NCBI GenBank assembly: GCA_044868005.1
Contig: JBIOVX010000017.1
Location: 9,377 to 73,376, forward strand
Length of the DNA stretch: 64,000 nucleotides
Reading direction: 5' to 3'
From: Thermoanaerobaculia bacterium
Lineage (GTDB): Bacteria > Acidobacteriota > Thermoanaerobaculia > Multivoradales > UBA5704
Shown here in pieces: positions 13,423-35,348 of the stretch. Each line of letters starts with the position of its first letter. The first letter of the stretch is position 1. Made by a program: the position numbers and the translations under genes. The notes under the pieces were generated by a model. That model was not told where the DNA came from. It made no database searches and saw only the letters and a program-made list of their open reading frames with translations.

Positions 13423-13428
13423 TGCCTG

Positions 13429-16053: not shown

Positions 16054-18099
16054 GTGAGCGCTGTGCAATCAACATCTTCCATGATCGTCCTCAGCGATCT
16101 TCAGCATCCCATTGGTGGCAAGTACCGGCTGAAGGAGCGCCTCGATGAAGGGGCTCTCGGCGTCGTCTACCGCGCCATCCACCTCGGCCTGGAGAAGTCC
16201 TTCGCGCTCAAGCTGCTCAAAAAGTCCGGAGCGCCGGCCGCCCTGGCGCGCTTCCGCCGGGAGGCGGTGGCGCTCGGGCGTCTCCAGCATCCCAACATCG
16301 TCGTCGTCACGGACTCCGGAATCGACGAGCTCTCCGGCGCGCCGTACCTGGTCATGGAGCTCCTCGACGGGAAACCGCTCTCGGACTTCTGCCGCGAGCA
16401 CGGCCCCCTGCCGCTCGCCCGGGCGCTTCCCCTCCTGGAGCAGATCGCCGAGGCCGTCGATGCGGCGCATGGCGCGGGCGTGCTCCATCGCGACCTCAAG
16501 CCCGGCAATATCTTCGTCGATGGGAGCGCCGATCAGCCGCGCGTCAAGGTACTGGATTTCGGGCTCGCCGAGCTGCTCGCGACGCCCGCGGAGACCGCGG
16601 CCTCTTCGCACCTCGGCGAGGAGGATCTCCCCAGCCTGACCTCGACGGACGCTCTCCACGGCACGCCGCTCTACGCCGCGCCGGAGCTGATCCGGCACGG
16701 CGAGGCCAGCCGGGCCTCGGACGTCTACTCCCTCGGCGTGATCGCCTACGAGATCCTCGGCGGTCAACCACCGTTCCGCGGCTCGATGGGCGAGGTTCTC
16801 ATGGGCCATCTCGAAGCGGAGCCTCCCCCGCTCCCCCTGCCCTCCCCGGTCTGGCGCGCCCTGCGGAACGCGCTGCAAAAAGATCCTGCCCTGCGGCCCC
16901 GCACCGCCGGCGACGTCGTGCGCGGGCTGCGGAGCGCGGTGCTGGAGGCGGAGCGGGAGCGTTGGAGAGCCGACGAAATACCACGCCGGCTGCGCCTCGC
17001 GGCTTTCCTCGCGGCATCGCTGGCCGCACTGGGTTTCTTTCTTCCGTGGCCGCCGGTGCCGCCGGCCGAGCGCTGGCTCGGCGATCTGCGCGTCCGCACC
17101 TCGCCGGCGAGGCAGCCGGACCCGCGCATCCTGCTGGTCACCCTGGACGAGGCGAGCCTCGACAGCAGCCCACTTTCCCTGGCCGAGCGGGCGGACGAGA
17201 TCGGGCGCACACTCTCACGGATCCTCGAGGCGGGAGCGCGCGGCGTAGCGGTCGATCTCCTGCCGCACGCGCGGTGGAGCGCGTCGCCGGGCTTCTCGGA
17301 CCTGCTCCTGCGGCACGCGGACCGCCTGACGCTCGCCGTGTTCTCCAATCCCGACGGCAAGGTCGTCGGCACCGAGTGCGTGGACGCTCTGACGGCGGCG
17401 GCCCTCGGCCCGCAACGCCTCGCCGGGACCTTCGGCTTCGCCAACATGGATGAAGACCGGGACGGCGTCGTCCGCCAGGGAAGGCTGTGGTTTCGCGACC
17501 GCGAAAGAGGCGAACAGCCGTCGTGGGCCGCGCAGGCGGCGCGGCGCCTCGGCTCCGGCAAGGCTCGGGAGGACGAAGTGTCCCGAAGATTCTGGGTCGA
17601 CACACGGATCGATTGGACTCGCTATGCACGCATCTCCTGGCGCCAGCTCCCCGCCGCTCTCGAGCGGAATCCCGGGCTGTTCCGGGGCCGGCTCGTGCTC
17701 GTCGGCGGGGACTTCCGCGGCTCCGGGGACGACATTTACCGCATCGCTCATCGCTCCAGCACGGTCTTGTCCGGGCTCGCGCTGCAGGCTTTGATGGTGG
17801 ACACGATCGGCGCCGGTCTGCCCGTTCGCGATCCGCACCGGATCTTCGTGCTCGCCACCGCGGCCCTGGCAGCCCTCCTCGCCGCGGCCGGGGCCCTCTG
17901 CGCGCCGCGGGCGGGCCGAGTCGCTCTCGGGCTCGCCGCGGCGGCGAGCCTCTACATGATCCTGTCGTTCCCGGTTTTCTGGTGGACGGGCCTGGGGCTG
18001 CCGATCACGGCTCCCGCGCTCCTCGTCCTGCTCGGCTTCCTCGTTGCATACGTTCTGCGGCGGAACCTTCCTTCACCGCCGGAGGTCTTAGAATCATGA
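16054..18099 (+). CDS. Hanks-type Ser/Thr kinase - TM - CHASE2 - TM fusion
   Basis: ALKLL, HRDLKPGN, DFG, GTPLYAAPE, SDVYSLG; then DPRILLVTLDE, GARGVAVDL, GFAN..D.DGVVR, FRGRLVLVG (CHASE2) and three C-terminal TM helices. Confidence 0.88.
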   Translation: MSAVQSTSSMIVLSDLQHPIGGKYRLKERLDEGALGVVYRAIHLGLEKSFALKLLKKSGAPAALARFRREAVALGRLQHPNIVVVTDSGIDELSGAPYLVMELLDGKPLSDFCREHGPLPLARALPLLEQIAEAVDAAHGAGVLHRDLKPGNIFVDGSADQPRVKVLDFGLAELLATPAETAASSHLGEEDLPSLTSTDALHGTPLYAAPELIRHGEASRASDVYSLGVIAYEILGGQPPFRGSMGEVLMGHLEAEPPPLPLPSPVWRALRNALQKDPALRPRTAGDVVRGLRSAVLEAERERWRADEIPRRLRLAAFLAASLAALGFFLPWPPVPPAERWLGDLRVRTSPARQPDPRILLVTLDEASLDSSPLSLAERADEIGRTLSRILEAGARGVAVDLLPHARWSASPGFSDLLLRHADRLTLAVFSNPDGKVVGTECVDALTAAALGPQRLAGTFGFANMDEDRDGVVRQGRLWFRDRERGEQPSWAAQAARRLGSGKAREDEVSRRFWVDTRIDWTRYARISWRQLPAALERNPGLFRGRLVLVGGDFRGSGDDIYRIAHRSSTVLSGLALQALMVDTIGAGLPVRDPHRIFVLATAALAALLAAAGALCAPRAGRVALGLAAAASLYMILSFPVFWWTGLGLPITAPALLVLLGFLVAYVLRRNLPSPPEVLES

Positions 18100-18983
18100 G
18101 CGTCCTGAGCAGGAGAAGATTCGGCGCCCTCGCCGCGCTGTCGTGCGGTCTCATGGTGATGGGGACGGCCGCGGCGAACGCACCCGTCGCCATCGTCTAT
18201 TCGCTGGCCGGCGAGGCCTCGCTCGCCGCTCCCCATGCGGCCCGCCGGCCGCTGCGGCTCTTCGATCGTCTGGGGGCCGGAACGACCGTGCAGGTCGGCC
18301 CGGGCGCTCGCCTGGCACTGGCGTTCGTGACCGGACGCCGCTACGAGCTGGGCGAACGTTCCCGGGTGACGCTCGGTGCGAAGGACCTCGCCACTCGCAG
18401 CGGGCCCGTGCGCGCGCTCCCCCGCGTTCCTCCACTGCCCCGCATTTCACCGATCGCGGCGAAGGACCGCCCGGGGGCAAAGGCCGGAGCTGTGAGGATT
18501 CGGGCGGAAAGCCTCACCGACCTTTATCCGGACCGCGGCGCGACGGCGTTGGCGGAGAAGACCGTCCTCCGCTTTCAACCGGTGGCGGCCACCCGCGGGT
18601 ACCGTATCGAGGTGCAGGATGATCGGGGTCGCAGCGTCTTCGCAACCGAAACGGCCGACTCTACGGTGCGTCTCCCGGCAGGGATCCTGCAGCCGGGCCG
18701 GCGCTACCGCTGGTGGGTCTCCACGGTGGAGCGCGCAGGCCCCGTGGCGCGCGGGGAAGCGGAGCTCGTGACCTTGCCGCAACGCACGGCGGAAGCGAGA
18801 GAGGCCCTGCGCCAGGCTGTCGAAGCGGCGGCAGACGGCTCTCTCCTCGCGCTGTTGGCCGAAGTCGATCGCAGTCTCGGCCTGCTGGCCGAAGCCAGGG
18901 AAGAATTCCGGGCGGCGCTCCAGGAATCCCCAGGGGACACCACTCTGGCCGAAACGCTCGGCCGGCGCCCAGACCCGCCATGA
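18096..18983 (+). CDS. Exported hypothetical protein (FecR-like N-terminus, DUF928-like C-terminus)
   Basis: ATGA overlap with the kinase; SRRRF plus hydrophobic signal; LQPGRRYRWWV motif, TPR-like tail. Family assignment is tentative. Confidence 0.6.
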   Translation: MSVLSRRRFGALAALSCGLMVMGTAAANAPVAIVYSLAGEASLAAPHAARRPLRLFDRLGAGTTVQVGPGARLALAFVTGRRYELGERSRVTLGAKDLATRSGPVRALPRVPPLPRISPIAAKDRPGAKAGAVRIRAESLTDLYPDRGATALAEKTVLRFQPVAATRGYRIEVQDDRGRSVFATETADSTVRLPAGILQPGRRYRWWVSTVERAGPVARGEAELVTLPQRTAEAREALRQAVEAAADGSLLALLAEVDRSLGLLAEAREEFRAALQESPGDTTLAETLGRRPDPP

Positions 18984-21900
18984 GGAAGCCCCATCCCGCG
19001 ATCTGGCTCAGCCTTGGGCTGGTGGTGGCCTGCACCGCCGCCGGCGTCCGGGGGCCTCATGAGGAGAACGTTGCGCGAGCCCCCGGCGTTCTCGTCGAGG
19101 AGGTGGCCGCGGAATCGCTGGGGGCTCGCGCGGGCCTGCAGGCCGGCGATCTCCTGGTCTCCTGGTGCAGGGCGGCCTCGCCGGATGGACCCTGCCTCGC
19201 CGCGGGGAGATTCGAGACCCCCTTCGATTTCGAAGCGATGGAGCTCGAAGAGGCGCCGCGAGGCGGCGTCAGGATCCTGGGAAAACGCGCCGCGGTCGGC
19301 ACCGCCTGGGTTCTTCTTCCGGGCTCCCAGTCGATCAAGGTCCGTCCCGTCCTCACAGAGGATCTCCTGGCGCTCTATGAGGAAGGCCGGAGCCTCGCCG
19401 GAGCGGAGCAGTTGGATATGGCGGTCGAGCGCTGGCGTTCGGCAGCGCGCGCAGCCGGGCATGCCGGTGACGGCCGGCTCGCCGTCTGGTTCCTGTTGCG
19501 GGCCGCCTGCGCCCTGGCCGAAGCGAGGAAATGGCCGTCGGCCGACGCACTCTTCAGTGAGGCAGCGGAGCAGGCACGCCTTCCCGGCGCGGCGAAGCTG
19601 GACGCCTGGATCGCGAAGGTCTGGGGAAAGGCCTTTCAGCGGCGCGGCTCCTGGCAGGAGGCGGAAGACCTCCTCCGCCGGTCGCTGGACCTCGACCGGA
19701 AAGCCGACCCGCAAGGCCTGGCCGTGTCCTGGGACCTCCACACCCTCGGCACCATGGCGGCCCAGCACAGCGATCTGAAAGCGGCCGAAGAGCATCTCCG
19801 GCAGGCGTTGGCCATCCGGGAAAGATTGGCCCCGCGCAGCCTCAGTCTCGCCGCGACCCTGATGAATCTGGGCAACGTGATACAGCTCCGGGGAGACTTG
19901 GCCTCCGCGGAGGACACGCTGCGACGAGCCTTGTCGATCCAGGAGGATCTGGCTCCCGGAAGCGCGGAAATCGCGGGCACTCTGCTCAACCTGGGCAGCC
20001 TCGTCGGCGCTCGCGGGAATTTCGCGGAATCGGAGGAGCTCCTCCGCCGCGCCAAGGCCATCTACGAGAGGACCAGGCCCGAGAGCCTCGAGCTGGCCAA
20101 GGCCCTGAAGAACCTCAGCGACCTCGCCGCCGACTCGTACGATACGGAAACCTCGGAGTATTTTCTGCAGCGAGCCCTGGCGATCGAAGAGAAGCGCGAC
20201 CCCAGCGGCGCGGGCCTGGCGATCACCCTGGAAAACCTGGGGCTCCAGGCACTGGACCGCGGGAACCTGGAGAGGGCCGAGGAGTATCTCCGGCGTGCCT
20301 TGAGCCTGGAGGAGAAATTGGAGCCGGAAGGCCTCGCCTTCGCGCGCGGGCTCAAGAACCTCGGCGTCGTCGCTCTCCGGCGGCAGGATTGCGCCACGGC
20401 CGAGACCCATCTCCAACGTGCCTTCGCCATCCAGCAGCGGCTGAGCCCCGGCAGCCTCAGCGACGCCCAGACCCTGGAAGCTCTCGGCGACATAGGCCTG
20501 GAGTGCGGAGACCTGGCGGAGGCGGAAGCTCGCTACCGGCAGGCGCTGGCCATCCGGGAAAAGCTGGCCCCAGGCACAGCAGGCGCCTCATTGCACAGCC
20601 TGGGCTTGACACTCCGGCGCCAGGGCCACCCGCTCGATGCCATGGAGGCTCTCTGCCGGGCCATCGACGTTTCCGAAACCCCATGGGAGCGCAGCGACAG
20701 GAAGGAAACGCAAGAGGCGAGCCTCTTCACCGACTGCCTCGCGGCGCGGGTCGAGCTCGGCCAGGTGGCGGAGGCTTTCCACGTCCTCGAGCGGGGGCGT
20801 GCCCGCGCCTTCCTCAAGCAGCTCGCCGAGCGCGACCTGCTGTTCGCCGCCAATCTTCCGCCGGAGATCGCCCGCAGGAAAACGGAGCTCAACCAGGATC
20901 TCGAGTCCGCCCAAGGGGCTCTGGCTCGCCTCAACCCGGCTCAGGACGCGGCCGAAATCGAACGCCTCCTCAACCGCCTGCGGGAAATTCAGGACCGGCA
21001 GCGGGAGCTGACCGCGCAAATCCGCAAGAGCTCTCCCCGCCTCGCCTCTCTGCAATATCCCGAGCCGCTCGACCTCGCCGGCGCGCGCCGCATCCTGGAT
21101 CCGGAGACGGTGCTGCTCTCCTACGCGGTCGGCGAGGAAGAGAGCTATCTGTTCGTGGTGCAGCCGCCCGAGCTCGCGGGCCCCGGCCTCGCGGTCTTCC
21201 GCATTCCGGTCGGCGCCAAGCCATTGCGGGAAGCGATCGCCTCGCTCGACAACCTCTTGCAGGACGCCCGCTCCGATCGCGCGGCGTTGACTGCCCAGTC
21301 CAGGAAGCTCTACGCCTTGTTGATCGGACCTGCCGAGGCTCAGATTGCCGCCGCGAAGCGTCTCCTCGTCTCGCCGAGCGGTCCCCTCCACACGCTGCCC
21401 TTCGCCACGCTGATGCGCAAGGACCGCTACCTCGTCGAGTGGAAACCGGTTCATTTCGTCCTCTCGGCGACCGTGTACGCGGAGCTGAAGAAAGCGCGGC
21501 GCGCGCCCGCAGACCTTACGCGAGGCCAGGTCGTCGCCTTCGGCGACCCGGTCTATCCGCCGCTGCCCAAGGACAGGAATGCGGCTCCGGCGGCGACGCT
21601 CGAGATCCTCACGGCGGCCAGCCGCGGCCTCTCTCTCGAGCCCATCCCGGCCACCCGGCGGGAGGTGGAAGGAATCGCCAGCCTCTATCCGCAGGCAGAG
21701 ACCTATCTCGGCGGCGAGGCCACGGAGGAGAAGGCGAAATCTCTCGGCGCCGAGGCGCGCCTCGTCCATTTTGCCTGCCACGGCCTGCTCGACGAGCGTT
21801 TTCCGCTCAACTCCGCGCTGGCGCTGACCATTCCCGAGCATCCGGCGCCGGGGCGGGACAACGGCCTGCTCCAGGCCTGGGAGATCCTGGAGAGCGTGCG

Positions 21901-26889: not shown

Positions 26890-26978
26890 CCCTCTCGACC
26901 AAGCCGGCAGGGATGACAGGCGATCAGATATCTGAGCTTCGTTATCGAGAGAGGGCACGACTACGAAAGGAGAAAAGG

Positions 26979-27461
26979 ATGATTCGGTTGAACAAAGCGC
27001 TTTTCTTTGCGGGTATCGCGGCGATGGTGCTGATGCTCAGCGCCGCGCCGGCCTCGGCGTGCGTCAACTACTTCTACGGCACGTCGGGCGACGACGTCAT
27101 CAATGGGACGACCCAGGAGGATTGCATCTTCGGCGGCGGGGGACATGACAACCTTTGGGGGTCCAGCGCCGATGACTACATCAACGGCGGTGACGGGCCC
27201 GACCTGGTGTACGGCGCTGTCGGCTCAGACGAGCTCGACGGCGCGGCGGGCACCGATTACATGGAAGGCGGTTCAAACGTCGATTACATGGAGGGCCGGC
27301 ATGGAGACGACACCCTCTATGGCGACGAGGGGAACGACTACGTTTACGGCGGCGGCGAAAACGATTACCTGGACGGCGGCAGCGGCTGGGACACGCTCGA
27401 CGGCATGACCGGCACGGATACCTGCGTCGCGGGAGAATCGCTCACGAGCTGCGAGTTTTAG
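26979..27461 (+). CDS. Small secreted RTX/hemolysin-type Ca-binding repeat protein
   Basis: AAGGAG RBS; signal peptide ending APASA; about 12 GGxGxDxLx-type nonapeptides; terminal Cys residues. Confidence 0.88.
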   Translation: MIRLNKALFFAGIAAMVLMLSAAPASACVNYFYGTSGDDVINGTTQEDCIFGGGGHDNLWGSSADDYINGGDGPDLVYGAVGSDELDGAAGTDYMEGGSNVDYMEGRHGDDTLYGDEGNDYVYGGGENDYLDGGSGWDTLDGMTGTDTCVAGESLTSCEF

Positions 27462-27529
27462 GTCTTCCTTCGGCCAACCAACGGGAGCGCCTCTGCGGAG
27501 GTGCTCCCGCGTTCTCGATTGAGGATCCC

Positions 27530-30500
27530 ATGCCGGCAAACTCTGTGCGCAGCAGATGCTGCCTCGCTCTCCTGATCGCTCTCTCCGCAGCGCCCCTGGC
27601 GGCTGAGACTGCCGTCACGGGCACGGTCTTCGGACCTGCGGGCCAACCCCTCGCCGGTGCTCGCGTCGAGCTCGTTCCGGTGCTGAGCAACTTCGAGGCA
27701 GGGCGATTGCGCCTCGCCGGGCAGCAGGATCCCCGTCCCGTCGCCCAAGGCAAGAGCGACGCCGCGGGCCGCTATGCCCTGCAGGCCCCCGCTGCCGGCG
27801 TATTCAAGGTCGTCGTCCGCGACCTAGGCCGGCTACCGATGCAGTACTCGCCGCTCCTGCTGGTGCAGGATGAGGAGCTCCCACCGGTCTCGCTGACCGC
27901 CGATGCCGGCGCCCGAGCGGTCATCCAGGACGCCGCCGGCCGGCCTCAGGCCAGGGCCTGGGTGTTCGCCGCGAGCAGCGACGAAGGAAGGACGCAAGGC
28001 CGCGCCGTCGCCGGCTGGCGGGCGGACTTCCGGCTCGGCCTGACCGGCGAGGACGGCACCGTTTCACTTCCCAGGCGGGAGGGAGAGCGGCTGGACGTCA
28101 GCGTCTTTCCTCCGGGAGGCGCCGAGCTGCAGCAGCTCGACTGGGCCGGAGGAACGATGACCGTCAAGGCGGGTGAAGCGGCCGTCCACCGCGTGCGGGT
28201 GCTCTCCACCAAGGGCGAACCCGCGGGCGGCGTCCTGGTCCGCGCCGGCGGCCTGGCCTGGCCCGTCGGGCTCACGGATGGCGACGGCCGGCTGCAGATT
28301 CCTCGTGCGCCGGGACAATCCGGGAAGCTCCGGCTGGTGGCTGCAGACGGCCGGCAGCAGAGCGTGGATCTGCCTGCCGAAACGGCGGATTCCGAGGTGG
28401 TCGTCACCCTCGCCGAGCCCGCCCTGGTAGCGGGCCGCATCACCCAACAGGAGACCGGGCAACCGCTGGCCGGCGCGCTCGTCAGTCCGGGTCTCGATCC
28501 CGGAGCGTTCGTGCTTGCGGGCGCGGATGGAGGCTATCGGCTGGTGGCCCCCGATCCCCAGGGATTTCCGTTGCGGGTGCAGGCCCTCCTCCGCCTGCCC
28601 AAGTCTCTCCGCATCACCCCGCCCCACGTGCGAGCGGGGCGGATTCCCACGGTAGCCTTGACGCGGGCCTCGGCGCTCCGCGGCCTGGTGGTCGATGCCC
28701 GGGGGTTGCCCCTCGCCGGCGCCGCCGTTCTCGCCTCCCCCGAGCGGAGCACGGAGCCCGGTGCCGCGGCGGCCCTGGAACGCAGCGCGACCGACGGCTC
28801 CGGCCGCTTCGAGCTCCGGCGGCTGCGTGCCGGAACCTCCTATGAGATCAGGACGGTCCGTCCGGGCTATCTGCCGGCTTCCACCAGGATGCCGGCGCCG
28901 TCCGGGGACGCGCCGGCCCTGAAGATCGTCCTCGCCGCCGCCCGCGCGGCCCACGGCAGGGTCCGGGATGCTGCCGGCAGACCCGTCTCGGGAGCCGAGA
29001 TCCGCCTCGAGCCGGCGCTCGCTCCCGGCGTCCGGCGTCCGGCGAAGGAGGCCGACGAGGCGAGCGATCCCTTCGCCGCCCGCACGGACGGGGAAGGCCG
29101 CTTCCGGCTCGACGGGGTCCCGGCGGAGCGGGTGGACCTCACGGCCCGCCAACCCGGCTACGCCACCGGACACGTTCGCGGCATCCGCATCCCTCCGGGA
29201 GAGGGACCCGCGGATCTGGGCACCGTCATCCTGAAGCCCGGAGCCCGCCTCCCGGGGCGCGTCGTCGACCGCCGGGGCGCTCCTGTAGCGGGGGCCGCTG
29301 TCCACCTCGTAGAGAGCCTCGACCATCTGGAGCGGGAGAGCGCGCGGCTCGCGGCCGAGACCCCGGATGCCATGACCGGAGCCGACGGCTCCTTTCTCAT
29401 CGAGGATCTCCCCCAGGCGACCCCGCTGCATCTCCTGGTGCGCGCTTCCGGCCACCTGCCGGCCGGTGTGGCAGGCGTGCGCGCCCCGGTATCGCAGCCC
29501 TTGATCGTCCGCCTCGAGCCGGCCGCGATGCTGCGCGGCCGCGTCGTCGACGAGCAGGGGGCGCCTGTAGGCGGCGCCCGGGTGATGCTTACCTGGCATC
29601 CGACCGCACCTGAAAATCCGGACCGGCCGGCCGGATCTCCCGTCAATCGCTCGGACATCGCCGGCCGCGACGGCTCGTTCGAGATCCGGGATGCTCCCGC
29701 CGGCCCCGTGCGCCTCGCCGTTTCCGCCCCGGGCTTCGTGTCGATCGAAGGTTTCGAAACCGCGGTCCCCTGGCGCGATGCGGACCGCGAGCTGACGCTC
29801 ACCCTGAAGAGAGGGGCGATGCTCAGCGGCCGCATCGCCACCACCGCGGGCCAGCCGGTCTCGGGAGCCCGCATCTCGGCCCAGGACGCCGCCGACGTAT
29901 CCGACGACGAAGGCGCCTACACCGTGCAAGGGGTCCCCCTGGGGCGCACCGAGGTCCAGGTCTTTCACCCCTCCTACAAGCTGTTCCGGCGCGTGATCGA
30001 GATCCAGCCGGGCACCAATCCGCTGGACGTCACCTTCGAAGCAGGGCTGGAGGTCTCGGGCCGGGTGAGAGACGGCCGGGGAGCGCCCGTGGCGGGAGCC
30101 CAGGTCGTCCTCCTCCGGCAGGCGCGAAGGGACTGGGGAGCCTATCGCGAGCGCACCGACGACGACGGGAGCTTCCGGTTCGCGGCGGTCGCCCGGGGCC
30201 ACTACCGCCTGACCGCGGGCGGCGAGAGCTACGCCGCGACGGAATGGAAGCAGCCCGTCGTCGTCGAGGACGAGCCCCTCGAGGGTCTGGAGGTCGTGCT
30301 CGAACGCGGCGGCACCGTCACCGGCCGGATCCTGGGCCTCGATGCGGAACAGCTCGCCCGCGTGGCAGTGGCAGCCGAGGGCGACGACGGCGAGTCCTTC
30401 CCGGCCATGGTGGACGCCGACGGCCGCTACGAGATCCGCCATCTTCCCCCCGGCGACTACCTGGTGCGGGCGGCCCTCGAATCAGGACAGCGGCAGGTGC

Positions 30501-31582
30501 AGGCCCGGGTGGCTTTGCCGCCGGGAGACGCGGAAGCCGTGCGCGATCTGCAGTTCGTTTCCCGCCTGACCCTCTCCGGTCAGGTGCTCTATCAGGAAGA
30601 GCCGCTCTCGGAAGCCAGGATCTCCATCCGCGGGAGCCGTCTGGCGATGGAGCGCTCGGTGGAGACCGACTACCAAGGAGGATTCCGCTTCGAAGACCTG
30701 GAGCCGGACACCTATCGGCTCGGCTTGAGCCATTCCCGCGAGCTTCTCGTCCACAACGACATCGTCGAGCTGTCCGCGGATCGCGAGATCACCATCCGGC
30801 TCCGGCCCTCCACCGTCAGCGGCTTCGTCACGGACGGGAAGAGCGGGCGTCCCATTCCTCACGCCCATCTCACCCTCCGCCACGTCGAAGGAGCGGAATT
30901 CCTCATCAGCGACAGCGCAGGGGAGGACGGCGCCTTCAGCGTCCACCGTGTTCCGGCGGGTTCCTATCTCTTGACCGCGCGTGCTTCCGGCTATTCTCCC
31001 GCGGAGCAAGACCTCGCCGTCTCGGCCGGGCAGGACGTGTCGGGCCTGGAGGTTGCCCTCGCGCCCACACGCGGTCTGGAGCTGATGGTCCGTCTGGCCT
31101 CGGGCCGCCTTCCCGATCGAGTCCACCTCCGGGTGGTGAGCCCGACCGGCGCCGTGGTCCTCACGGAGACCCGGCCGATCGATCCGTCCGGCAAGGTCGA
31201 TCTTGCGACCCTGCCCGAGGGGAGCTGGATCCTGCTTCTGAGCACGCCCGGCAGCGCCACCGCCGTGGTCCCGGTCACGGTTCCCGGAGAGCTTCTCCGC
31301 GTGACTCTCCCCGGGGCCGGCCAATTACATATCCGAGTCCCCGCCTTGGTCACTTCGGATCTCCGCGCCACGGTGACCTTGAGCGCGGCGGACCAGCCCT
31401 TCTGGGTCGTGGGTCCGGGAGGCAGCCTCCAGGACAGGTGGCCGCTCGTGGGCGGCAAGGCGTCGATCGAAGGCGTCCCGGCCGGCCGCTGGCAGATCCG
31501 GGTGGAGTCGCCGGACGGGCGGAGCTTGACAAGACCGATAACGACATCGGGACAGGGTGAGATGGAATTGATGGTGGAGTGA
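27530..31582 (+). CDS. Large secreted carboxypeptidase-regulatory-like (CarboxypepD_reg) repeat protein
   Basis: Signal peptide; repeated G.V.D..G.P..GA.V...TD..G.F...L..G.Y.L.A...GY units. Confidence 0.85.
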   Translation: MPANSVRSRCCLALLIALSAAPLAAETAVTGTVFGPAGQPLAGARVELVPVLSNFEAGRLRLAGQQDPRPVAQGKSDAAGRYALQAPAAGVFKVVVRDLGRLPMQYSPLLLVQDEELPPVSLTADAGARAVIQDAAGRPQARAWVFAASSDEGRTQGRAVAGWRADFRLGLTGEDGTVSLPRREGERLDVSVFPPGGAELQQLDWAGGTMTVKAGEAAVHRVRVLSTKGEPAGGVLVRAGGLAWPVGLTDGDGRLQIPRAPGQSGKLRLVAADGRQQSVDLPAETADSEVVVTLAEPALVAGRITQQETGQPLAGALVSPGLDPGAFVLAGADGGYRLVAPDPQGFPLRVQALLRLPKSLRITPPHVRAGRIPTVALTRASALRGLVVDARGLPLAGAAVLASPERSTEPGAAAALERSATDGSGRFELRRLRAGTSYEIRTVRPGYLPASTRMPAPSGDAPALKIVLAAARAAHGRVRDAAGRPVSGAEIRLEPALAPGVRRPAKEADEASDPFAARTDGEGRFRLDGVPAERVDLTARQPGYATGHVRGIRIPPGEGPADLGTVILKPGARLPGRVVDRRGAPVAGAAVHLVESLDHLERESARLAAETPDAMTGADGSFLIEDLPQATPLHLLVRASGHLPAGVAGVRAPVSQPLIVRLEPAAMLRGRVVDEQGAPVGGARVMLTWHPTAPENPDRPAGSPVNRSDIAGRDGSFEIRDAPAGPVRLAVSAPGFVSIEGFETAVPWRDADRELTLTLKRGAMLSGRIATTAGQPVSGARISAQDAADVSDDEGAYTVQGVPLGRTEVQVFHPSYKLFRRVIEIQPGTNPLDVTFEAGLEVSGRVRDGRGAPVAGAQVVLLRQARRDWGAYRERTDDDGSFRFAAVARGHYRLTAGGESYAATEWKQPVVVEDEPLEGLEVVLERGGTVTGRILGLDAEQLARVAVAAEGDDGESFPAMVDADGRYEIRHLPPGDYLVRAALESGQRQVQARVALPPGDAEAVRDLQFVSRLTLSGQVLYQEEPLSEARISIRGSRLAMERSVETDYQGGFRFEDLEPDTYRLGLSHSRELLVHNDIVELSADREITIRLRPSTVSGFVTDGKSGRPIPHAHLTLRHVEGAEFLISDSAGEDGAFSVHRVPAGSYLLTARASGYSPAEQDLAVSAGQDVSGLEVALAPTRGLELMVRLASGRLPDRVHLRVVSPTGAVVLTETRPIDPSGKVDLATLPEGSWILLLSTPGSATAVVPVTVPGELLRVTLPGAGQLHIRVPALVTSDLRATVTLSAADQPFWVVGPGGSLQDRWPLVGGKASIEGVPAGRWQIRVESPDGRSLTRPITTSGQGEMELMVE

Positions 31583-31597: not shown

Positions 31598-31632
31598 AAG
31601 TCCGGCTCGCCCCACCCCTTCCACTGGGCGGC
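31598..31632 (+). pseudogene. Vestige of a CHAT gene 3' end
   Basis: aagtccggctcgccccaccccttccactgggcggc (KSGSPHPFHWA) closely matches 22148-22182. Confidence 0.65.
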
Positions 31633-31657
31633 CCCCCGCGAACGCGATCGCTCGGTT

Positions 31658-31702
31658 TTTCAACGACTTGTGAGCACCGTTGTGCCAGGTGCCGAAATTG
31701 CT
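31658..31702 (+). promoter_or_regulatory. IHF-like site plus sigma54-like promoter of the small peptide gene
   Basis: TTTCAAcgacTTG (close to WATCAAnnnnTTR); aGGtgccgaaaTTGCt with GG-N10-GC. Confidence 0.45.
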
Positions 31703-31750: not shown

Positions 31751-31807
31751 ATGCGCGTCGCGACACACGTCAAAGCAGGAGCCAGGGCCGTAATCATCGA
31801 TTTGTAA
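31751..31807 (+). CDS. 18-aa small peptide MRVATHVKAGARAVIIDL
   Basis: Perfect SD GAAAGGAGGTGA ending 5 nt before the ATG; followed by a hairpin; too short for the ORF track. Confidence 0.75.
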   Translation: MRVATHVKAGARAVIIDL

Positions 31808-31854: not shown

Positions 31855-33453
31855 TCAGTCGTCCGCTCCGCCGCCCGCGGCCGAGATCCCCAGACTCTTC
31901 ATATACCGGTGAAAGGTCGCCTTGGTGAGCCCCAGGCTCTCCCGGGCGGCCTTGACGTTGCCGCCGTGAAGCTCCAGACGCGACTGGATGAGCTCGCGCT
32001 GGAAGTCGCGCAGAGCGTCGCGCATCGAGCCGTCGCCCAGCAGGGGAGCGGCCTTGGGGTTGGGTTCTCCACGCACGACTTCAGGCAGGCAGCTTTCGAT
32101 CAGCGCCGGATCGATCCGGGCGCCGGGCCGCGCGTGGATCACGAACAGCGAGCAGGCGCGCGCCACCTCCCGCACGTTGCCCGGCCAACCGTAGGAGACG
32201 AGCGCGCGCACCGCCTCGCGGGTGAAGCCGAGCGTCCGCTTGCGGTGCTTGCTCTCGTGGTGCCGCCGGAAGTGCTCCAGCAGCAGCGGGATGTCCCGCG
32301 GCCGCTCGCGCAACGGCAGGAGCCGGATGGCGAGCGAGCGGAAGCGGTCGTAGAAGTCCGCCCGCAGGGTTCCCTTGCGGACCGCCTCGGCAAGATCGCG
32401 GTTGGTGGCCAGCACGACCGCCACGTCGACCGGGATCTCCCGCGTCTGCCCGACGGGGACGACGCGATGGTTCTCGAGCACCCGCAGCAGATGGGCCTGC
32501 GCCCGCAGCGTGAGATCGGCCACCTCGTCGAGGAAGAGGATGCCGCCGTTGGCCGCGCGGAAGAAACCGGGCTCGTCGGTGATGGCGCCGGTGTAGGAAC
32601 CCTTCTTGTGGCCGAAGAAGCGGGAGGCCGCGAGCTCCTCCGTGATCTCGGCGCAGTTGACCACCACCAGGGGTTTGCGGCTGCGCGAGCTGTAGGCGTG
32701 CAGGTAGCGCGCGACGAGGTCCTTGCCCGTGCCTCGCTCTCCCAGGATCAGGATGGGCTCGGGATTCTCCGTGTCCAGGGCAGGGATGTACGTCTCGTGC
32801 AGCGCGTGCCGCAGCGCCTCGGTGGCCGCCGAGTCGCCCAGGATCTCCGGCGCGTCGGCGCTCTCATCCGCGGCGGCGAGGAGATCGCGCAGCTCGCGCG
32901 CCTGCCGCTCCTGGCGGAAGTAGAAGCCGCAGGTCCGGCCCACCGCCGCCGCGTATCTCGCCAGCCAGGCGCGGTCCTCCTCTCGATAGGCCTCGGTGAG
33001 GCCGCGGTTCTGGAAGTAGACCACGGCGAGCACCGCGTCGCGGACCGGATCGCGGATCGGCGCGCAGAGCACGCTGAAAGGACCGTCCTCCAGCGAGGGT
33101 GTGCGCGAGACGTCGGCGCGCAGCCGCGGATCCTCGATCAGCTCCGGCTCGCCGGTCGCGATGACGCGTTGGATCAGAGAGGGGCTCACCCCCGGGACGG
33201 ACTCGCCTCTCTCGCACGCCGCGATCTGTTCCGGGGTGAGCCTGCCGACGGTCTCGATGTTGCGCAGGCGCAAGGGCTCGCGCTCCTCCACCAGCAGGAG
33301 CAGGGCCTTGCGGGCGCCGAACCCCCGCGCCGCGGCGGTGAACGAGGCGCGCAGAGCCGCCTCCTCGCCGGCCTCGCTCGCCAGCACCGCCAGGAGCTCG
33401 TTCATCGCCTCCAGGAGCTGAGCGTAGTCGCGGCCTTCGGGGGAGGTCGTCAT
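31855..33453 (-). CDS. GAF + sigma54-interacting AAA+ + Fis-HTH transcriptional activator
   Basis: GERGTGKDL, VNCA, FGHKKGSYTGA, LFLDEV, WPGNVRE, C-terminal HTH; N-terminal GAF (SVLCAPI). Start may be at 33504. Confidence 0.9.
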   Translation of the reverse strand: MTTSPEGRDYAQLLEAMNELLAVLASEAGEEAALRASFTAAARGFGARKALLLLVEEREPLRLRNIETVGRLTPEQIAACERGESVPGVSPSLIQRVIATGEPELIEDPRLRADVSRTPSLEDGPFSVLCAPIRDPVRDAVLAVVYFQNRGLTEAYREEDRAWLARYAAAVGRTCGFYFRQERQARELRDLLAAADESADAPEILGDSAATEALRHALHETYIPALDTENPEPILILGERGTGKDLVARYLHAYSSRSRKPLVVVNCAEITEELAASRFFGHKKGSYTGAITDEPGFFRAANGGILFLDEVADLTLRAQAHLLRVLENHRVVPVGQTREIPVDVAVVLATNRDLAEAVRKGTLRADFYDRFRSLAIRLLPLRERPRDIPLLLEHFRRHHESKHRKRTLGFTREAVRALVSYGWPGNVREVARACSLFVIHARPGARIDPALIESCLPEVVRGEPNPKAAPLLGDGSMRDALRDFQRELIQSRLELHGGNVKAARESLGLTKATFHRYMKSLGISAAGGGADD

Positions 33454-33494
33454 CTCGCCGGCCTCGATGATATGCGATCGAGCTCGGCTCGGCG

Positions 33495-35348
33495 TCATTC
33501 GCACGTCAGCCGCAGCCGCCGCTTGTTGGTGCGCGACTCGGCGAGGGCGATCTCCTTGAGGGTGGGGAAGGCCGCGGGATCGATCCAGCGCTGGCGCAGC
33601 TCGGTGCCCCGCTCGAGGACCAGCACCCTGCCCTTGACGGCGAGCTGCTGGCGGAAGGCGCCGAGATCGTTCTGCACCGTCACGTCCTGCCCTTCGACCT
33701 TGCAGGCGTCCCTGGGCAGGGTGACGCGCCAGGCGACGCGGCTGGCAAAGGGGCGAAGCACCAAGGGCACGGAGCGGCCGTCGAGCAGCCCGGAGGCGGG
33801 CATATCCACCATGTATGGCAAGGGAATCGCCGGCAGGGCGCTTTCCCCGGCGGACACCCCCAGGGACGGCACGCGCACCTTCGCTTCCAGCCTCACGGCG
33901 GGCACGCCACCGGCGACCGGTTGCAGGCGGATGCCGTCCACCGTGGCGCCGGCGGGCAGGAAGGCGGCGAAGACTTCGCGCACCACCCGGTCGACGTCCT
34001 GCGGCCTGCCGTCGGCGTGCAGCCGGAGAAAGTCGGCGCCGGCCTCGCCGGAGAGGTCCAGGCGCACGGCGCCGCTCGCTTCGCCGCTCGCCGCCAGGTC
34101 GAGATCCGCTTCCAGCCGGCGCCCTTCCTCGCCGCTGCGGATCGGCGTCCGCACCAGCTCGGCACGGCCGCCGCGCATCACCAGAGCCTCCTGATCCTGC
34201 ACGGCCGGCTGCAGCCAGCCGAGCCCGCCGGTCTCCTGCGTGGCGTCGAGGAAGAGGTAGCCGCCGGAGACCGGCGCCTGCTCACCCAGAGCGAGACCGG
34301 CGGCGGGCACGGCGACGATCATGTGGTTGAACTGATAGGGCGACGCGAACTCGCGGTCCACCCGGCCTTTCGGATCGAGCCGGATGAGGGCCGGGTAGGC
34401 CTCGACGCCGGCCTCGCGCAGCAGGTCGATGAGCAGCAGGGCCTTGTCCTTGCAGTCGCCCCAGAGCCGCCCGACGACCTGCTCCGGCGGGGCGGGACGG
34501 AAACCGCCGATGCCGATCTCGACGGCGACATATCGCACCTGCCGGCGCGCGAAGTCGGTAAGGATCTCCATCTGCCGCTCGCGGCCGGCGACGCCGGCGA
34601 TCAGCTCGCGCGCCTTGTGCCGCACCGGCTCGGCGCCGCGGGGAATCTGCGCGGTCAGCCCTTCGAACCACCGGGCCACGGCTTCCCATCCCGCCGAATC
34701 GCCCCAGGCATAGCGCAGCACGGCGCCGTCGTAGGCGATGCCGGGTGCGCGCTCCGGCGGCGCCAGGCGCGGCAGATGGGACGCCGCGACGGTGACCCCG
34801 CCCGCCGACTCCTGGACGTCGAGCCCGGGGAGCTCACCGTCGATCCGCCAGCGCCAGCCGGCGCCGCCGCCGTGCACCGAGACGCGCAGCGACTCGACGG
34901 GATCCGTGGAGCCGAGGTCCAGGTGGCCCGCCGGGAAGTAGGGCCGCTCGCGCACCTCGAAGTCCACGCTCAGCACCGAGCCCACGGGCACGGCCGGGAA
35001 GCTGACGGTGCGCAGCCGCAGCGACGAGTGCAGCTCGCCGGCGCCCGTCACCTGCTGGGTGTCGAGGTCCCGGCGAGACACTTTGAGGACCCTGCCGTCC
35101 GGCCGGGTGGCGGTCGCCGTGAGGTCCACCAGCTCGCGGTTCTCGTCGAGCGCCACGGGGTAGGGAGACCAGAGCGAGAAGTCGCCGGGCTCGTCGAGCC
35201 TCACCCGCAGGCGCCTGCGCTCGGCGACCGAGCCGTCGGGCCGGATCTCGACGTCGATTGCCCGCTCGAGCACCGTGGCGCCGCGCGCCGGCGCGGCGAG
35301 AGCGAGGAGCAGGAGGCTAGCGGCGGACCAGCAGCAGCTTCTGGGCAT
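33495..35348 (-). CDS. DUF3857 + transglutaminase-like protein (catalytic triad intact)
   Basis: VRYVAVEIGIGG, GDCKDKA, FNHMIV, FLDAT; signal peptide. Confidence 0.88.
   Translation of the reverse strand: MPRSCCWSAASLLLLALAAPARGATVLERAIDVEIRPDGSVAERRRLRVRLDEPGDFSLWSPYPVALDENRELVDLTATATRPDGRVLKVSRRDLDTQQVTGAGELHSSLRLRTVSFPAVPVGSVLSVDFEVRERPYFPAGHLDLGSTDPVESLRVSVHGGGAGWRWRIDGELPGLDVQESAGGVTVAASHLPRLAPPERAPGIAYDGAVLRYAWGDSAGWEAVARWFEGLTAQIPRGAEPVRHKARELIAGVAGRERQMEILTDFARRQVRYVAVEIGIGGFRPAPPEQVVGRLWGDCKDKALLLIDLLREAGVEAYPALIRLDPKGRVDREFASPYQFNHMIVAVPAAGLALGEQAPVSGGYLFLDATQETGGLGWLQPAVQDQEALVMRGGRAELVRTPIRSGEEGRRLEADLDLAASGEASGAVRLDLSGEAGADFLRLHADGRPQDVDRVVREVFAAFLPAGATVDGIRLQPVAGGVPAVRLEAKVRVPSLGVSAGESALPAIPLPYMVDMPASGLLDGRSVPLVLRPFASRVAWRVTLPRDACKVEGQDVTVQNDLGAFRQQLAVKGRVLVLERGTELRQRWIDPAAFPTLKEIALAESRTNKRRLRLTCE

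What the first reader, a model, noticed from the sequence alone, without database searches (positions are those of the whole stretch)
16054..33504. Candidate undescribed signalling system: kinase-CHASE2 + three secreted TPR-CHAT proteases + micro-peptide + sigma54 activator
Seen: the kinase-CHASE2, accessory and CHAT-1 genes overlap by ATGA, as do CHAT-2 and CHAT-3. They are followed on the same strand by an RTX protein, a large repeat protein and an 18-aa peptide gene. A GAF-AAA+-Fis activator converges on the block, and sigma54-like promoters sit before the RTX and peptide genes. Known: CHASE2 is an extracellular sensor domain; CHAT domains are caspase-fold His/Cys proteases; CHASE2, CHAT and DUF928 genes co-occur in cyanobacteria. 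Inference: exported CHAT proteases generate or destroy a ligand (peptide, RTX or accessory protein) that CHASE2 senses, and the kinase and activator relay this to sigma54 transcription, giving a proteolysis-gated cell-cell signalling circuit.
Basis: partly seen in the sequence, partly recalled or inferred. Interest (0 to 1): 0.85.

Follow-up and report, generated by a model that had tools for sequence, protein, structure and literature searches.

The report
Receptor kinase with tethered periplasmic protease
A soil acidobacterium carries a conserved sensing module in which a membrane kinase, a small adaptor protein and caspase-like proteases outside the cell membrane are inherited together with a gene activator next to exported-protein genes, which gives a testable idea of how the long-unexplained CHASE2 sensor domain receives its signal.

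Summary

Comparison across the genus (Thermoanaerobaculia, soil MAGs) separates a core from variable cargo.

Core:
- Ser/Thr kinase-CHASE2, accessory protein (ACC) and a PDZ-TPR-CHAT protease lie together in 16 of 16 loci.
- The sigma54 activator is co-inherited with them: 29 genomes have both, 9 neither, 3 are discordant, of 41.
- ACC is fused in-frame to the CHAT protease in 9 of 16 loci.
- ACC is fused to kinase-CHASE2 in four database proteins.
- All parts form one 1816-aa chain in P0182.
- A complex model places ACC on the CHASE2 domain (0.75; best control 0.00).
- ACC resembles MtxA, which is likewise encoded next to a CHASE2 receptor.

Variable cargo:
- RTX-like proteins, the repeat protein, glycosidases and the micro-peptide differ between loci.
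- Many are preceded by conserved -24/-12 elements and a rare palindrome.

The micro-peptide is real, but its THVKAG subtype occurs in only 3 of the 41 genus genomes.

The proteolysis-gating mechanism and the kinase-to-activator step remain inference.

The parts
16054..18099 (+). Receptor Ser/Thr kinase: N-terminal Hanks-type kinase, one membrane helix, periplasmic CHASE2 domain, C-terminal hydrophobic helices
   Evidence: Pfam Pkinase 150.7 bits (res 24-248) and CHASE2 70.1 bits (res 330-598). HRDLKPGN, DFG and APE motifs are visible in the translation (the motif names are recalled). It is the only CHASE2 match in the 7.07 Mb genome. Orthologues at 51-72% identity occur in 29 of 40 other genomes of the genus.
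18096..18983 (+). ACC: exported adaptor, consisting of an N-terminal beta domain, a conserved Pro-rich linker, an Ig/FN3-like domain and a TPR-like helical end
   Evidence: ATGA overlap at both ends. AF2 model with pLDDT 70. Best solved-structure match is the MtxA C-terminal domain, E 2e-5. Predicted to bind the CHASE2 domain through residues 30-35, 56-58, 76-82 and 111-138. Fused to the CHAT protease in 9 of 16 loci.
18980..22210 (+). CHAT-1: PDZ-TPR-CHAT caspase-fold protease with a lipoprotein-like signal (LVVAC)
   Evidence: CHAT 234 bits, TPR_12 in 8 stretches, PDZ_6 20.5 bits. HFACHG and SACDT motifs in the translation. Orthologue at 82% identity in G345.
22254..23678 (+). CHAT-2: short paralogue with PDZ, a few helices and the C-terminal part of CHAT only
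   Evidence: CHAT profile positions 60-289 only; PDZ_6 26.4 bits. The PDZ plus TPR fold was modelled at pLDDT 83.7, and the best matches are RseP PDZ domains.
23675..26737 (+). CHAT-3: TPR-CHAT paralogue with its own signal peptide and no PDZ
   Evidence: ATGA overlap. CHAT 246 bits. 70-82% nucleotide identity to the other two copies in the CHAT domain.
26766..26810 (.). Candidate activator binding sites: half-site CAAATCTGAGAC (26766-26777) and palindrome GTCTCACAAATGAAAC (26795-26810)
   Evidence: The palindrome pattern GTYTCA-N2-6-TGARAC occurs 5 times in about 366 kb of these loci: four in the CHAT-to-activator interval, and one (G345 20314) not placed more closely than 2.1 kb beyond the activator's 3' end. 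The whole 7.07 Mb genome holds 2, one of them this site. The half-site also occurs in L001, L002, L005 and L008.
26874..26889 (+). -24/-12 (sigma54-type) element before the RTX-like gene
   Evidence: TGGTCCGACTTCTGCA, 9 of 12. Equivalent elements precede RTX-like genes in L002 (10 of 12), L005 and L008 (9 of 12) and G345 (8 of 12).
26979..27461 (+). Small exported RTX-repeat (beta-roll) protein; variable cargo
   Evidence: HemolysinCabind 75 bits. N-terminal hydrophobic signal-like stretch. Relatives found in 6 of 18 loci.
27530..31582 (+). Large exported CarboxypepD_reg-repeat protein; variable cargo
   Evidence: 10 stretches, 409 bits. Relatives only in L009, L012 and G345.
31600..31633 (+). 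Footprint of a CHAT gene 3' end
   Evidence: Aligns with the last codons of CHAT-1/2/3 and then diverges. It also explains the apparent joint 22208>31913 in the contigs.
31687..31702 (+). -24/-12 element before the micro-peptide gene
   Evidence: GG-N10-GC with TTGCT is kept in all three loci that have the peptide: AGGTGCCGAAATTGCT, CGGCCTCGGAATTGCT, CGGCTCCAAAGTTGCT.
31751..31807 (+). Micro-peptide MRVATHVKAGARAVIIDL
   Evidence: Strong RBS. 4 tandem copies in L001 and 1 in G345. Family pattern found at 23 sites in 8 of 41 genus genomes, 0 for the reversed control. A paralogous array of 5 lies next to a C39-peptidase ABC exporter.
31855..33504 (-). GAF-AAA+-HTH sigma54 activator (start more likely at 33453)
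   Evidence: Sigma54_activat 182.6 bits, GAF_2 35.2 bits, HTH_8 21.2 bits (below its 22-bit cut-off). GSYTGA loop in the translation. 73-91% identity in relatives. rpoN is present in the genome.

Best explanation
WHAT IT IS
A conserved trans-envelope signalling module of one Thermoanaerobaculia genus.

PARTS
- A membrane Ser/Thr kinase exposes a CHASE2 domain in the periplasm.
- An exported adaptor (ACC) is MtxA-like. It has a beta domain, a conserved Pro-rich linker, an Ig-like domain and a TPR-like end.
- ACC docks on CHASE2 through its beta domain and linker.
- ACC carries, or is encoded beside, a PDZ-TPR-CHAT caspase-fold protease. The protease is therefore held at the receptor.

MOST LIKELY MECHANISM (inferred)
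1. The PDZ and TPR parts recognise an extracytoplasmic protein or peptide cue.
2. CHAT cleavage, of the cue or of the adaptor linker, changes what occupies CHASE2.
3. This switches the cytoplasmic kinase.
4. The co-inherited GAF-type sigma54 activator then drives -24/-12 promoters carrying a palindromic upstream site.
5. These promoters stand in front of a species-specific set of exported cargo genes. Here the cargo is an RTX-like beta-roll protein, a CarboxypepD_reg repeat protein and a double-glycine-type micro-peptide.

WHAT IS SHOWN AND WHAT IS NOT
- Shown by computation: gene content, conservation, fusions, folds, the predicted ACC-CHASE2 interface, and the conserved promoter and palindrome motifs.
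- Inferred: export, protease activity, what is cleaved, kinase to activator coupling, and activator binding to the palindrome.
For: CORE CONSERVED
- Kinase-CHASE2, ACC and CHAT are adjacent in 16 of 16 loci. The activator lies 1.2-8.2 kb away in 13 of the 13 loci where it could be seen.
- Flanking genes differ between subsets of loci.

PHYLETIC PATTERN
- In 41 genus genomes: 29 have both the CHASE2 part and the activator's GAF part, 9 have neither, 2 have the activator only, and 1 has CHASE2 only.
- The one CHASE2-only genome is 77% complete and the gene sits at a contig edge.
- Both genes lie on one contig in 22 of the 29.

FUSIONS
- ACC is in one frame with PDZ-TPR-CHAT in 9 of 16 loci.
- 55 of 63 longer ACC-bearing database proteins carry CHAT.
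- Four cluster representatives are Pkinase-CHASE2 with ACC at the C-terminus.
- P0182 (1816 aa) is kinase-CHASE2-ACC-TPR-CHAT in one chain.

COMPLEX MODEL
- Score 0.75 in three runs (0.74, 0.75, 0.75), best of 3 controls 0.00. The mark was reached by 58 of 80 solved complexes and 2 of 110 mismatched pairs.
- The runs agree in at least 86% of contacts; partner pLDDT is at least 83.
- My own alignments of 14 and 11 rows were used.
- The interface uses the ACC linker 111-138, whose residues 118-137 are below pLDDT 50 in the monomer model and which holds eight of the alignment's invariant columns.
- No solved relative of this CHASE2 domain was found by sequence.

PRECEDENT
- ACC's best structural match is MtxA. 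The passages I read of PMC4439547 say mtxA is followed by a CHASE2-adenylate cyclase gene.
- A FecR-domain gene is adjacent to CHASE2 in 3 of 5 other Acidobacteriota loci and in Burkholderia (PMC5192318, passages).

PDZ
- The PDZ fold is most like the RseP PDZ.

PROMOTERS
- -24/-12 matches of 9 or more of 12 lie within 150 nt upstream of cargo gene starts in the window, L001, L002, L005, L008, L010 and L011.
- The background rate is 28 such matches in 128 kb of strand.
- The palindrome is enriched about a hundredfold over the genome.
- The genome encodes sigma54.
Against: - No expression or biochemical data exist.
- By consensus alone the sigma54 sites are weak (8-10 of 12) and no more frequent in the window than in shuffles.
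- The activator has a GAF input domain and no receiver or FHA domain. Nothing shows that the kinase acts on it.
- G005 keeps the activator without the CHASE2 gene.
- In the window the activator starts 42 nt after a DUF3857 gene on its own strand, so it may be read with that gene.
- CHAT lies next to CHASE2 in only 1 of 40 other Acidobacteriota CHASE2 loci. The protease is therefore not a general part of CHASE2 signalling.
- CHAT-2 lacks the first part of the CHAT domain and may be inactive.
- Export signals were judged by eye.
- The complex score is a model's confidence, obtained with shallow alignments of close relatives.
- P0178, another apparent fusion, looks like a frameshift artefact. Single fused records need care.
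Confidence: 0.55

Rival explanations
1. Two unrelated units lie side by side. The kinase-CHASE2/ACC/CHAT genes form one system whose output is something other than transcription from this locus. The GAF-type sigma54 activator senses its own small-molecule ligand and controls the neighbouring exported-protein genes independently.
For: The activator has its own GAF input domain. G005 has the activator without the CHASE2 gene. In the window the activator follows a DUF3857 gene on its own strand by 42 nt. No palindrome was found near the 5' ends of the kinase genes.
Against: The phyletic pattern is 29 both and 9 neither of 41, with both on the same contig in 22 of 29. The block keeps together while flanking genes change.
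Confidence: 0.2
2. The exported micro-peptide (or RTX protein) is the ligand. It is made under sigma54 control, processed by the CHAT proteases and sensed by CHASE2, giving an autoinducing cell-cell signal.
For: The peptide is real and sits between CHAT and the activator, with a conserved -24/-12 element, in all three loci that have it. A paralogous array lies beside a C39-peptidase ABC exporter, so the family is probably exported. The genome has two such exporters.
Against: The THVKAG subtype was found in 3 of 41 genus genomes, while the core is in about 30. RTX-like genes were found in 6 of 18 loci. ACC, not the peptide, is the component predicted to occupy CHASE2. No link between the peptide and CHAT cleavage was tested.
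Confidence: 0.12
3. An envelope quality-control or maturation system. The periplasmic PDZ-TPR-CHAT proteases process or degrade exported proteins such as the neighbouring cargo, and the kinase only tunes this.
For: The cargo genes beside the proteases all encode proteins with signal-like N-termini: RTX-like, Ig-like, glycosidases and repeat proteins. PDZ proteases often act on exported proteins (established knowledge).
Against: This does not explain why the adaptor that docks on CHASE2 is fused to the protease, nor the all-in-one kinase-CHASE2-ACC-TPR-CHAT chain. The genome has 21 CHAT matches, but only these lie beside CHASE2.
Confidence: 0.08
4. A conflict or anti-phage system of the TPR-CHAT plus kinase kind that kills or arrests the cell.
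For: TPR-CHAT and Ser/Thr kinases occur in defence systems. PADLOC models match the kinase domain (PD-T4-6, mad6) and the TPR region.
Against: The PADLOC hits are generic domain hits, with none for ACC or the CHAT domains. The proteases carry export signals and the sensor is periplasmic. The Csx29 model scores 21.5 bits against a cut-off of 300.
Confidence: 0.03

Closest known systems
MtxA and the adjacent CHASE2-adenylate cyclase gene of magnetotactic bacteria (PMC4439547; passages read)
   Same: MtxA is an exported protein of about 300 aa with an Ig-like domain and a TPR-like end, encoded next to a CHASE2 receptor. It is the best structural match of ACC (4z29, E 2e-5, 152 columns). The Atlas lists an MtxA_C/MtxA_IG-like/DUF7354 cluster among ACC's nearest (0.94).
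   Different: No Pfam MtxA family matched ACC or its 10 relatives, even at E up to 10. The output there is a cyclase, not a kinase. There is no CHAT protease and no sigma54 activator. A physical MtxA-CHASE2 contact has not been reported in what I read.
FecR(+LysM) protein, CHASE2 histidine kinase and response regulator: the 'BiofilmReg' operon of Burkholderia (PMC5192318; passages read)
   Same: A periplasmic beta-rich partner protein is encoded beside a CHASE2 sensor. The same pairing was seen in 3 of 5 Acidobacteriota loci.
   Different: ACC is not demonstrably FecR: 1 of 11 members at E 0.076, and hhalign probability 0.7%. That system is a two-component output with no protease.
DUF928 with CHASE2 gene clusters of cyanobacteria (PMC5587647; one passage read).
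   Same: A small exported protein sits beside a CHASE2 sensor. The Atlas lists DUF928/TPR clusters of about 327 aa among ACC's nearest (0.94).
   Different: DUF928 matched 1 of 11 ACC members at E 0.085. The paper's supplementary table could not be seen.
DegS/RseP-type regulated proteolysis of the envelope stress response (established knowledge)
   Same: A periplasmic PDZ-bearing protease gates a signal across the inner membrane. The PDZ modelled here is most like RseP PDZ domains.
   Different: Here the protease is a caspase-fold Cys/His enzyme with a TPR array. The transducer is a Ser/Thr kinase and the output is sigma54, not an anti-sigma factor.
Csx29 (TPR-CHAT of type III-E CRISPR, 'Craspase')
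   Same: TPR array followed by a CHAT domain with the His and Cys motifs.
   Different: Csx29 is cytoplasmic and RNA-guided. The NCBIfam model scores 21.5 bits against a cut-off of 300.
Double-glycine leader peptides exported by C39-peptidase ABC transporters
   Same: The peptide family has ...KAGG or ...KAGA after about 11 residues, followed by a short variable tail. One array of five lies directly beside HlyD, a C39-ABC and a second ABC gene.
   Different: The leader is far shorter than classical ones. No NCBIfam family matched the two 21-aa members tested. The window copy has no exporter nearby.

Membership tests
CHASE2 sensor domain (PF05226) | Profile match over the curated cut-off, flanked by membrane helices | tested here: met
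   70.1 bits against a cut-off of 26.3, res 330-598. Hydrophobic stretches before and after it are visible in the translation. The score is low beside the 130-216 bits of most other Acidobacteriota CHASE2 domains, so it belongs to a divergent branch.
Hanks-type Ser/Thr kinase | Pkinase profile and catalytic motifs | tested here: met
   Pkinase 150.7 bits. HRDLKPGN, DFG and APE are present in the translation. Which residues are catalytic is recalled, not tested.
CHAT caspase-fold protease (PF12770) | Full CHAT profile with the His and Cys motifs | tested here: met
   CHAT-1 scores 234 bits and CHAT-3 246 bits over profile positions 3-289. HFACHG and SACDT are present in all three. CHAT-2 covers only positions 60-289, so for that copy the full-domain feature is not met.
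PDZ domain | Pfam cut-off; PDZ fold | tested here: inconclusive
   Sequence scores fall below the 27-bit cut-off: 20.5 bits for CHAT-1 and 26.4 bits for CHAT-2. The fold test is met: in the model (pLDDT 83.7) residues 40-120 match RseP PDZ2 (3id4, TM-score 0.70 on the target) and Aquifex S2P PDZ domains.
Sigma54 enhancer-binding protein | Sigma54_activat AAA+ domain, GAFTGA-type loop, C-terminal HTH, and sigma54 in the genome | tested here: met
   Sigma54_activat 182.6 bits and HTH_8 21.2 bits (below its 22-bit cut-off). The loop reads GSYTGA, a variant (the motif is recalled). rpoN matches at 220.8 bits on C277. No NCBIfam equivalog reached its cut-off; the best was NorR at 273 against 476.
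MtxA family (Pfam MtxA_C, MtxA_IG-like, DUF7354) | Sequence match to the family models | tested here: not met
   None of the three families appears for any of the 11 ACC sequences at E up to 10. The likeness rests on fold, on the Atlas and on the shared position beside a CHASE2 gene.
FecR domain (PF04773) | Profile match | tested here: inconclusive
   1 of 11 members at E 0.076. hhalign against three genuine CHASE2-adjacent FecR proteins gave probability 0.7% and E 0.082, although it aligned the expected strand region.
DUF928 (PF06051) | Profile match | tested here: inconclusive
   1 of 11 members at E 0.085. The Atlas lists DUF928/TPR clusters at 0.94.
RTX toxin / type I secretion substrate | Nonapeptide repeats plus a C-terminal secretion signal and T1SS genes | tested here: inconclusive
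   Repeats are met (75 bits). All RTX toxin models score far below cut-off, for example 69.7 against 1000. The protein is 160 aa with an N-terminal signal-like stretch. No T1SS genes were seen in the locus. I file it as a small beta-roll protein, not a toxin.
Sigma54 promoter | GG and GC 10 nt apart with TGGCAC/TTGC context, conserved and upstream of a gene | tested here: met
   The spacing is met at 26874 and 31687. The element is conserved in three peptide loci and in five RTX loci. Function was not tested.
Double-glycine leader peptide | GG or GA cleavage site and a cognate C39-ABC exporter | tested here: inconclusive
   The KAGG/KAGA motif is present. The exporter is adjacent only for the C124 array. 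The classical leader consensus is not evident. Cleavage was not tested.

The most novel reading that the evidence does not exclude
CHASE2 does not bind a free ligand. It reads the state of a dedicated periplasmic adaptor of the MtxA/DUF928/FecR-like kind, whose conserved linker lies in a CHASE2 groove. In this lineage the adaptor is the leash of a caspase-like protease. The whole would then be a bacterial protease-activated receptor kinase: cleavage outside the membrane is converted into Ser/Thr phosphorylation and sigma54 transcription inside. In three species a secreted micro-peptide under the same promoters closes the loop. The peptide's KAGA-RAVII stretch faintly resembles the linker's AKAGAVRIR. 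That likeness is not above chance and is offered only as a lead.
Probability: 0.2. Interest if true: 0.85.

Novelty: new variant of a known kind. Interest (0 to 1): 0.64.

Why it matters
From recall, CHASE2 was defined in 2003. In the passages I read, what most CHASE2 domains sense is still called unknown, and the one studied case points to a cue of protein nature (PMC13001267).

This locus offers a concrete and testable picture. An adjacent exported adaptor docks on CHASE2, and here it brings a caspase-fold protease to the receptor. Natural fusions of every pair of parts support this.

If it holds, three things follow:
- MtxA, DUF928 and FecR neighbours of CHASE2 receptors in many phyla would have an explanation.
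- It would describe a periplasmic signalling role for CHAT proteases. I found no paper holding both 'CHASE2' and 'CHAT domain'.
- It would link Ser/Thr receptor kinases to sigma54 control of secreted proteins in soil Acidobacteriota.

Tried and rejected

LITERATURE
- 'CHASE2' with 'CHAT domain' gave 0 papers.
- 'CHASE2' with 'CHAT' as whole words gave 3 papers, none on such a system.
- 'DUF928' gave 1 paper.
- 'MtxA' with 'FecR' gave 0 papers.
- The library lacks most subscription journals, and supplements were closed. Supplementary Table S4 of PMC5587647 was not seen.

SIGMA54 CONSENSUS SCAN
- It is not enriched in the window: 1 match against 5.25 in shuffles at 10 or more of 12; 28 against 39.5 at 9 or more; 138 against 177.6 at 8 or more.
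- Consensus alone was therefore rejected as evidence, and conservation was used instead.

ACC FAMILY ASSIGNMENT
- Pfam gave only weak TPR, Ig, fn3, FecR and DUF928 hits.
- The PDB profile search gave only designed FN3 proteins.
- NCBIfam gave a weak retention_LapA hit, 20.8 bits against 50.
- hhalign to FecR neighbours was inconclusive.

OTHER NEGATIVE OR UNINFORMATIVE RESULTS
- No NCBIfam family matched the two 21-aa peptide paralogues.
- The peptide was not found in 13 other CHAT-to-activator intervals.
- PADLOC gave only generic domain hits.
- No RNA holder was listed for the stretch, so expression could not be examined.
- The laid runs are contigs that may come from the source sample. They break in the CHAT repeats, and their depths were not used.
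- P0178 and P0180 were set aside as fusion evidence. P0178 has an Arg-rich wrong-frame stretch, and P0180 lacks CHASE2 on a short contig.
- The rough GC3-based gene calls include wrong-strand shadows. They were used only to see that the flanks differ.
- The tally includes two genomes flagged unpublished (G088, G189). Nothing was fetched from them, and only that tally (117 of 301) touches them.

Full report
WHAT IS IN THE WINDOW

- Kinase-CHASE2, 16054..18099: Pkinase 150.7 bits and CHASE2 70.1 bits.
- Accessory protein (ACC), 18096..18983: its ATG lies in an ATGA over the kinase stop.
- CHAT-1, 18980..22210: behind a second ATGA.
- CHAT-2, 22254..23678, and CHAT-3, 23675..26737: joined by a third ATGA.
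- A 160-aa RTX-repeat protein, 26979..27461.
- A 1350-aa CarboxypepD_reg repeat protein, 27530..31582.
- An 18-aa ORF, 31751..31807, behind GGAGGTGA.
- A convergent GAF-AAA+-HTH activator, 31855..33504. It more likely starts at 33453, 42 nt after a DUF3857 gene on its strand.

The kinase has the usual catalytic motifs. All three CHAT proteins keep the HFACHG and SACDT motifs.

CHAT-2 is a short form covering only profile positions 60-289, and CHAT-3 lacks the PDZ. The PDZ is sub-threshold in Pfam. A model of the CHAT-2 N-terminus (pLDDT 83.7) nevertheless matches RseP PDZ domains first and TPR proteins next.

N-terminal hydrophobic stretches suggest export of ACC, the three CHAT proteins, the RTX-like protein and the repeat protein. 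I judged this by eye only.

The genome (7.07 Mb, 304 contigs) has one CHASE2 match and 21 CHAT matches. Names that sources give to close ACC relatives place the organism in Thermoanaerobaculia, Acidobacteriota. The DNA is held by soil metagenome runs.

CORE AND CARGO

I fetched 16 loci around orthologues of the kinase-CHASE2 gene from other species of the genus.

- All 16 have kinase-CHASE2, ACC and a PDZ-TPR-CHAT gene together. As a rule there is one CHAT gene, and it is inverted in two loci.
- The activator (73-83% identical) converges 1.2-8.2 kb beyond in the 13 loci where it was seen. Two loci end too early. In one genome the activator lies on another contig.
- A closer relative, G345, has two CHAT genes. 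The three genes here are therefore a local tandem expansion.
- A 34-nt footprint of a CHAT 3' end at 31600-31633 records further rearrangement.
- Flanking genes differ between subsets of loci.

Across the 41 genomes of the genus, 29 have both the CHASE2 part and the activator's GAF part, 9 have neither, 2 have only the activator (one of them as a fragment), and 1 incomplete genome has only CHASE2. In 22 of the 29 the two genes are on one contig, within 35 kb. These genomes are kin, so the counts overstate independence.

Outside the genus the full-length kinase-CHASE2 was not found in 16 genomes of other families of the order.

What lies between CHAT and the activator varies:
- RTX-like proteins in 6 of 18 loci.
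- The repeat protein in the window, L009, L012 and G345.
- Ig-like DUF1573/HYDIN proteins.
- A GH5 cellulase and an apiosidase-like enzyme.
- Proteins with no family.

THE ACCESSORY PROTEIN IS THE HINGE

In 9 of 16 loci the frame that holds ACC runs on into PDZ-TPR-CHAT, so adaptor and protease are one exported protein.

Among 63 longer database proteins that contain ACC, 55 carry CHAT. In the exhaustive search the ACC profile found 4298 cluster representatives at E up to 0.001, and 348 at E up to 1e-30. Four of these, of about 1000 aa, have ACC at the C-terminus, and Pfam shows them to be Pkinase-CHASE2 proteins.

P0182 (1816 aa) is kinase-CHASE2-ACC-TPR-CHAT in one chain. In it the former ACC signal sequence sits where a further membrane helix would put ACC back outside.

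ACC has no Pfam family. Its model shows a beta domain (30-108), a low-confidence stretch at 118-137, an Ig/FN3-like domain (157-226) and a helical end. The best solved match is the MtxA C-terminal domain (E 2e-5).

The MtxA paper states that mtxA is followed by a conserved CHASE2-adenylate cyclase gene, and that MtxA is exported and made of Big and TPR folds (PMC4439547, passages). Related pairings are FecR/LysM proteins with CHASE2 histidine kinases in Burkholderia (PMC5192318) and DUF928 with CHASE2 in Nostoc (PMC5587647). I found a FecR gene adjacent to CHASE2 in 3 of 5 other Acidobacteriota loci.

The complex model of the CHASE2 domain with ACC passed. The score was 0.75 and the best of 3 controls 0.00. 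The mark was reached by 58 of 80 solved complexes and 2 of 110 mismatched pairs. The runs agreed in at least 86% of contacts, and partner pLDDT was at least 83. My own alignments were used.

The interface uses the beta domain and the linker 111-138. That linker holds eight of the invariant columns of the ACC alignment. It is kept even in the short fused forms that lack the Ig-like domain. No solved relative of this CHASE2 domain exists by sequence.

THE PROTEASE IS A LINEAGE ADDITION

Of 40 CHASE2 loci taken from other Acidobacteriota by score and context, only one had CHAT within about 9.5 kb. That one is a CHASE2-cyclase followed by TPR-CHAT in a genome of the same class. Five of the 40 had a kinase near CHASE2, and six had an AAA+ activator.

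PROMOTERS

Consensus scanning alone is worthless here. Conservation is what counts.

- The three loci with the peptide keep GG-N10-GC with TTGCT at the same place, although the surrounding sequence has diverged.
- RTX-like genes in the window, L002, L005, L008 and G345 each have a -24/-12 element 70-110 nt upstream of the start.
- So do the cargo genes of L001, L010 and L011.
- The palindrome GTYTCA-N2-6-TGARAC occurs five times in about 366 kb of these loci.
- Four of those copies lie between CHAT and the activator; the fifth (G345 20314) was not placed more closely than 2.1 kb beyond the activator's 3' end. Where a -24/-12 element was mapped beside a copy (window, L002, L008, G345 20617), the copy lies about 70-110 nt upstream of it.
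- It occurs only twice in the whole 7.07 Mb genome.
- The genome has rpoN.

I infer that the palindrome is the activator's site. This is not shown.

THE MICRO-PEPTIDE

It is a member of a real family. The degenerate pattern finds 23 sites in 8 of 41 genus genomes and none when reversed.

On contig C124 five tandem copies (MRVKTTVKAGG plus five variable residues) lie directly beside HlyD, a C39-peptidase ABC transporter and a second ABC gene. This points to export with cleavage after GG or GA.

The THVKAG subtype occurs only in the window, in L001 (four copies) and in G345. In each case it lies between CHAT and the activator. It is therefore cargo of one subclade, not a core ligand.

HOW IT MOST LIKELY WORKS

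Shown by computation:
- A conserved, co-inherited set of kinase-CHASE2, adaptor, protease and activator.
- Natural fusions of the first three.
- A predicted adaptor-CHASE2 interface.
- Conserved sigma54-type promoters with a private palindrome before exported cargo.

Inferred:
- The PDZ and TPR parts of the tethered protease sense a protein or peptide outside the membrane.
- CHAT cleavage alters the adaptor-CHASE2 contact.
- The kinase responds.
- The activator turns on the cargo.

The weakest link is kinase to activator. The activator has a GAF input and no known phospho-acceptor domain, and one genome keeps it without the receptor.

RIVALS

Four rivals are weighed in their own sections: two independent units, a peptide autoinducer loop, envelope proteolysis, and defence. 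PADLOC gave only generic domain hits.

VERDICT

I found no description of such a system in the searchable literature.

Noticed in passing
own genome contig C124, locus L017 9712-10233 (-), outside the window: An array of five micro-peptide genes (MRVKTTVKAGG plus 5 variable residues) lies directly beside HlyD, a Peptidase_C39-ABC transporter and a second ABC gene. Single paralogues lie on C72, C107 and C211. The set looks like an undescribed family of very short double-glycine-type exported peptides.
   Followed up: partly
window 31600-31633: A 34-nt footprint of a CHAT gene 3' end lies just after the repeat-protein gene. L015 9132-9299 holds a longer 56-codon CHAT C-terminal remnant. Both are signs of repeated recombination in the cargo interval.
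   Followed up: partly
G345 contig C137 (L062+L061) 10255-16352: In this close relative the RTX-like and repeat-protein genes lie beyond the activator. They are preceded by a second activator copy lacking the GAF part (residues 218-541, 81% identical) and followed by a 55-codon activator fragment. The cargo cassette seems to move together with pieces of the activator gene.
   Followed up: no
L058 (G291:C23) 9352-16116: A genome of the same class has a CHASE2-adenylate/guanylate cyclase followed by a TPR-CHAT gene. It is the only other CHASE2-CHAT neighbourhood among 40 Acidobacteriota loci. The C-terminal extension of the cyclase protein weakly matches the ACC beta domain (E 0.0016).
   Followed up: partly
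window 4000-14000: A stretch of lower G+C (56-60% against about 70%) holds a weak IS1-transposase-like match (10537-11460, 28.9 bits) just upstream of the module. It may be mobile or foreign DNA.
   Followed up: no
window 33495-37266 (-): Two DUF3857 proteins (one also with DUF3858 and a transglutaminase core) lie directly upstream of the activator on its strand, 42 nt from its likely start. They have no counterpart next to the activator in the other loci.
   Followed up: partly
window 38268-63999: A polysaccharide-type cluster: glycosyltransferases of families 1 and 2, a Wzt-type ABC ATPase, a PEGA protein, a radical SAM-SPASM enzyme (54597-55862) and a PKD-domain protein of more than 1500 aa that runs off the window.
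   Followed up: no
window 26700-31540 in runs X1-X4: The contigs carrying the RTX-like and repeat-protein genes have somewhat lower word depth than the neighbouring contigs in three of four runs (for example 19 against 25 in X1). Contig depths are too coarse to say whether part of the population lacks the cassette.
   Followed up: no
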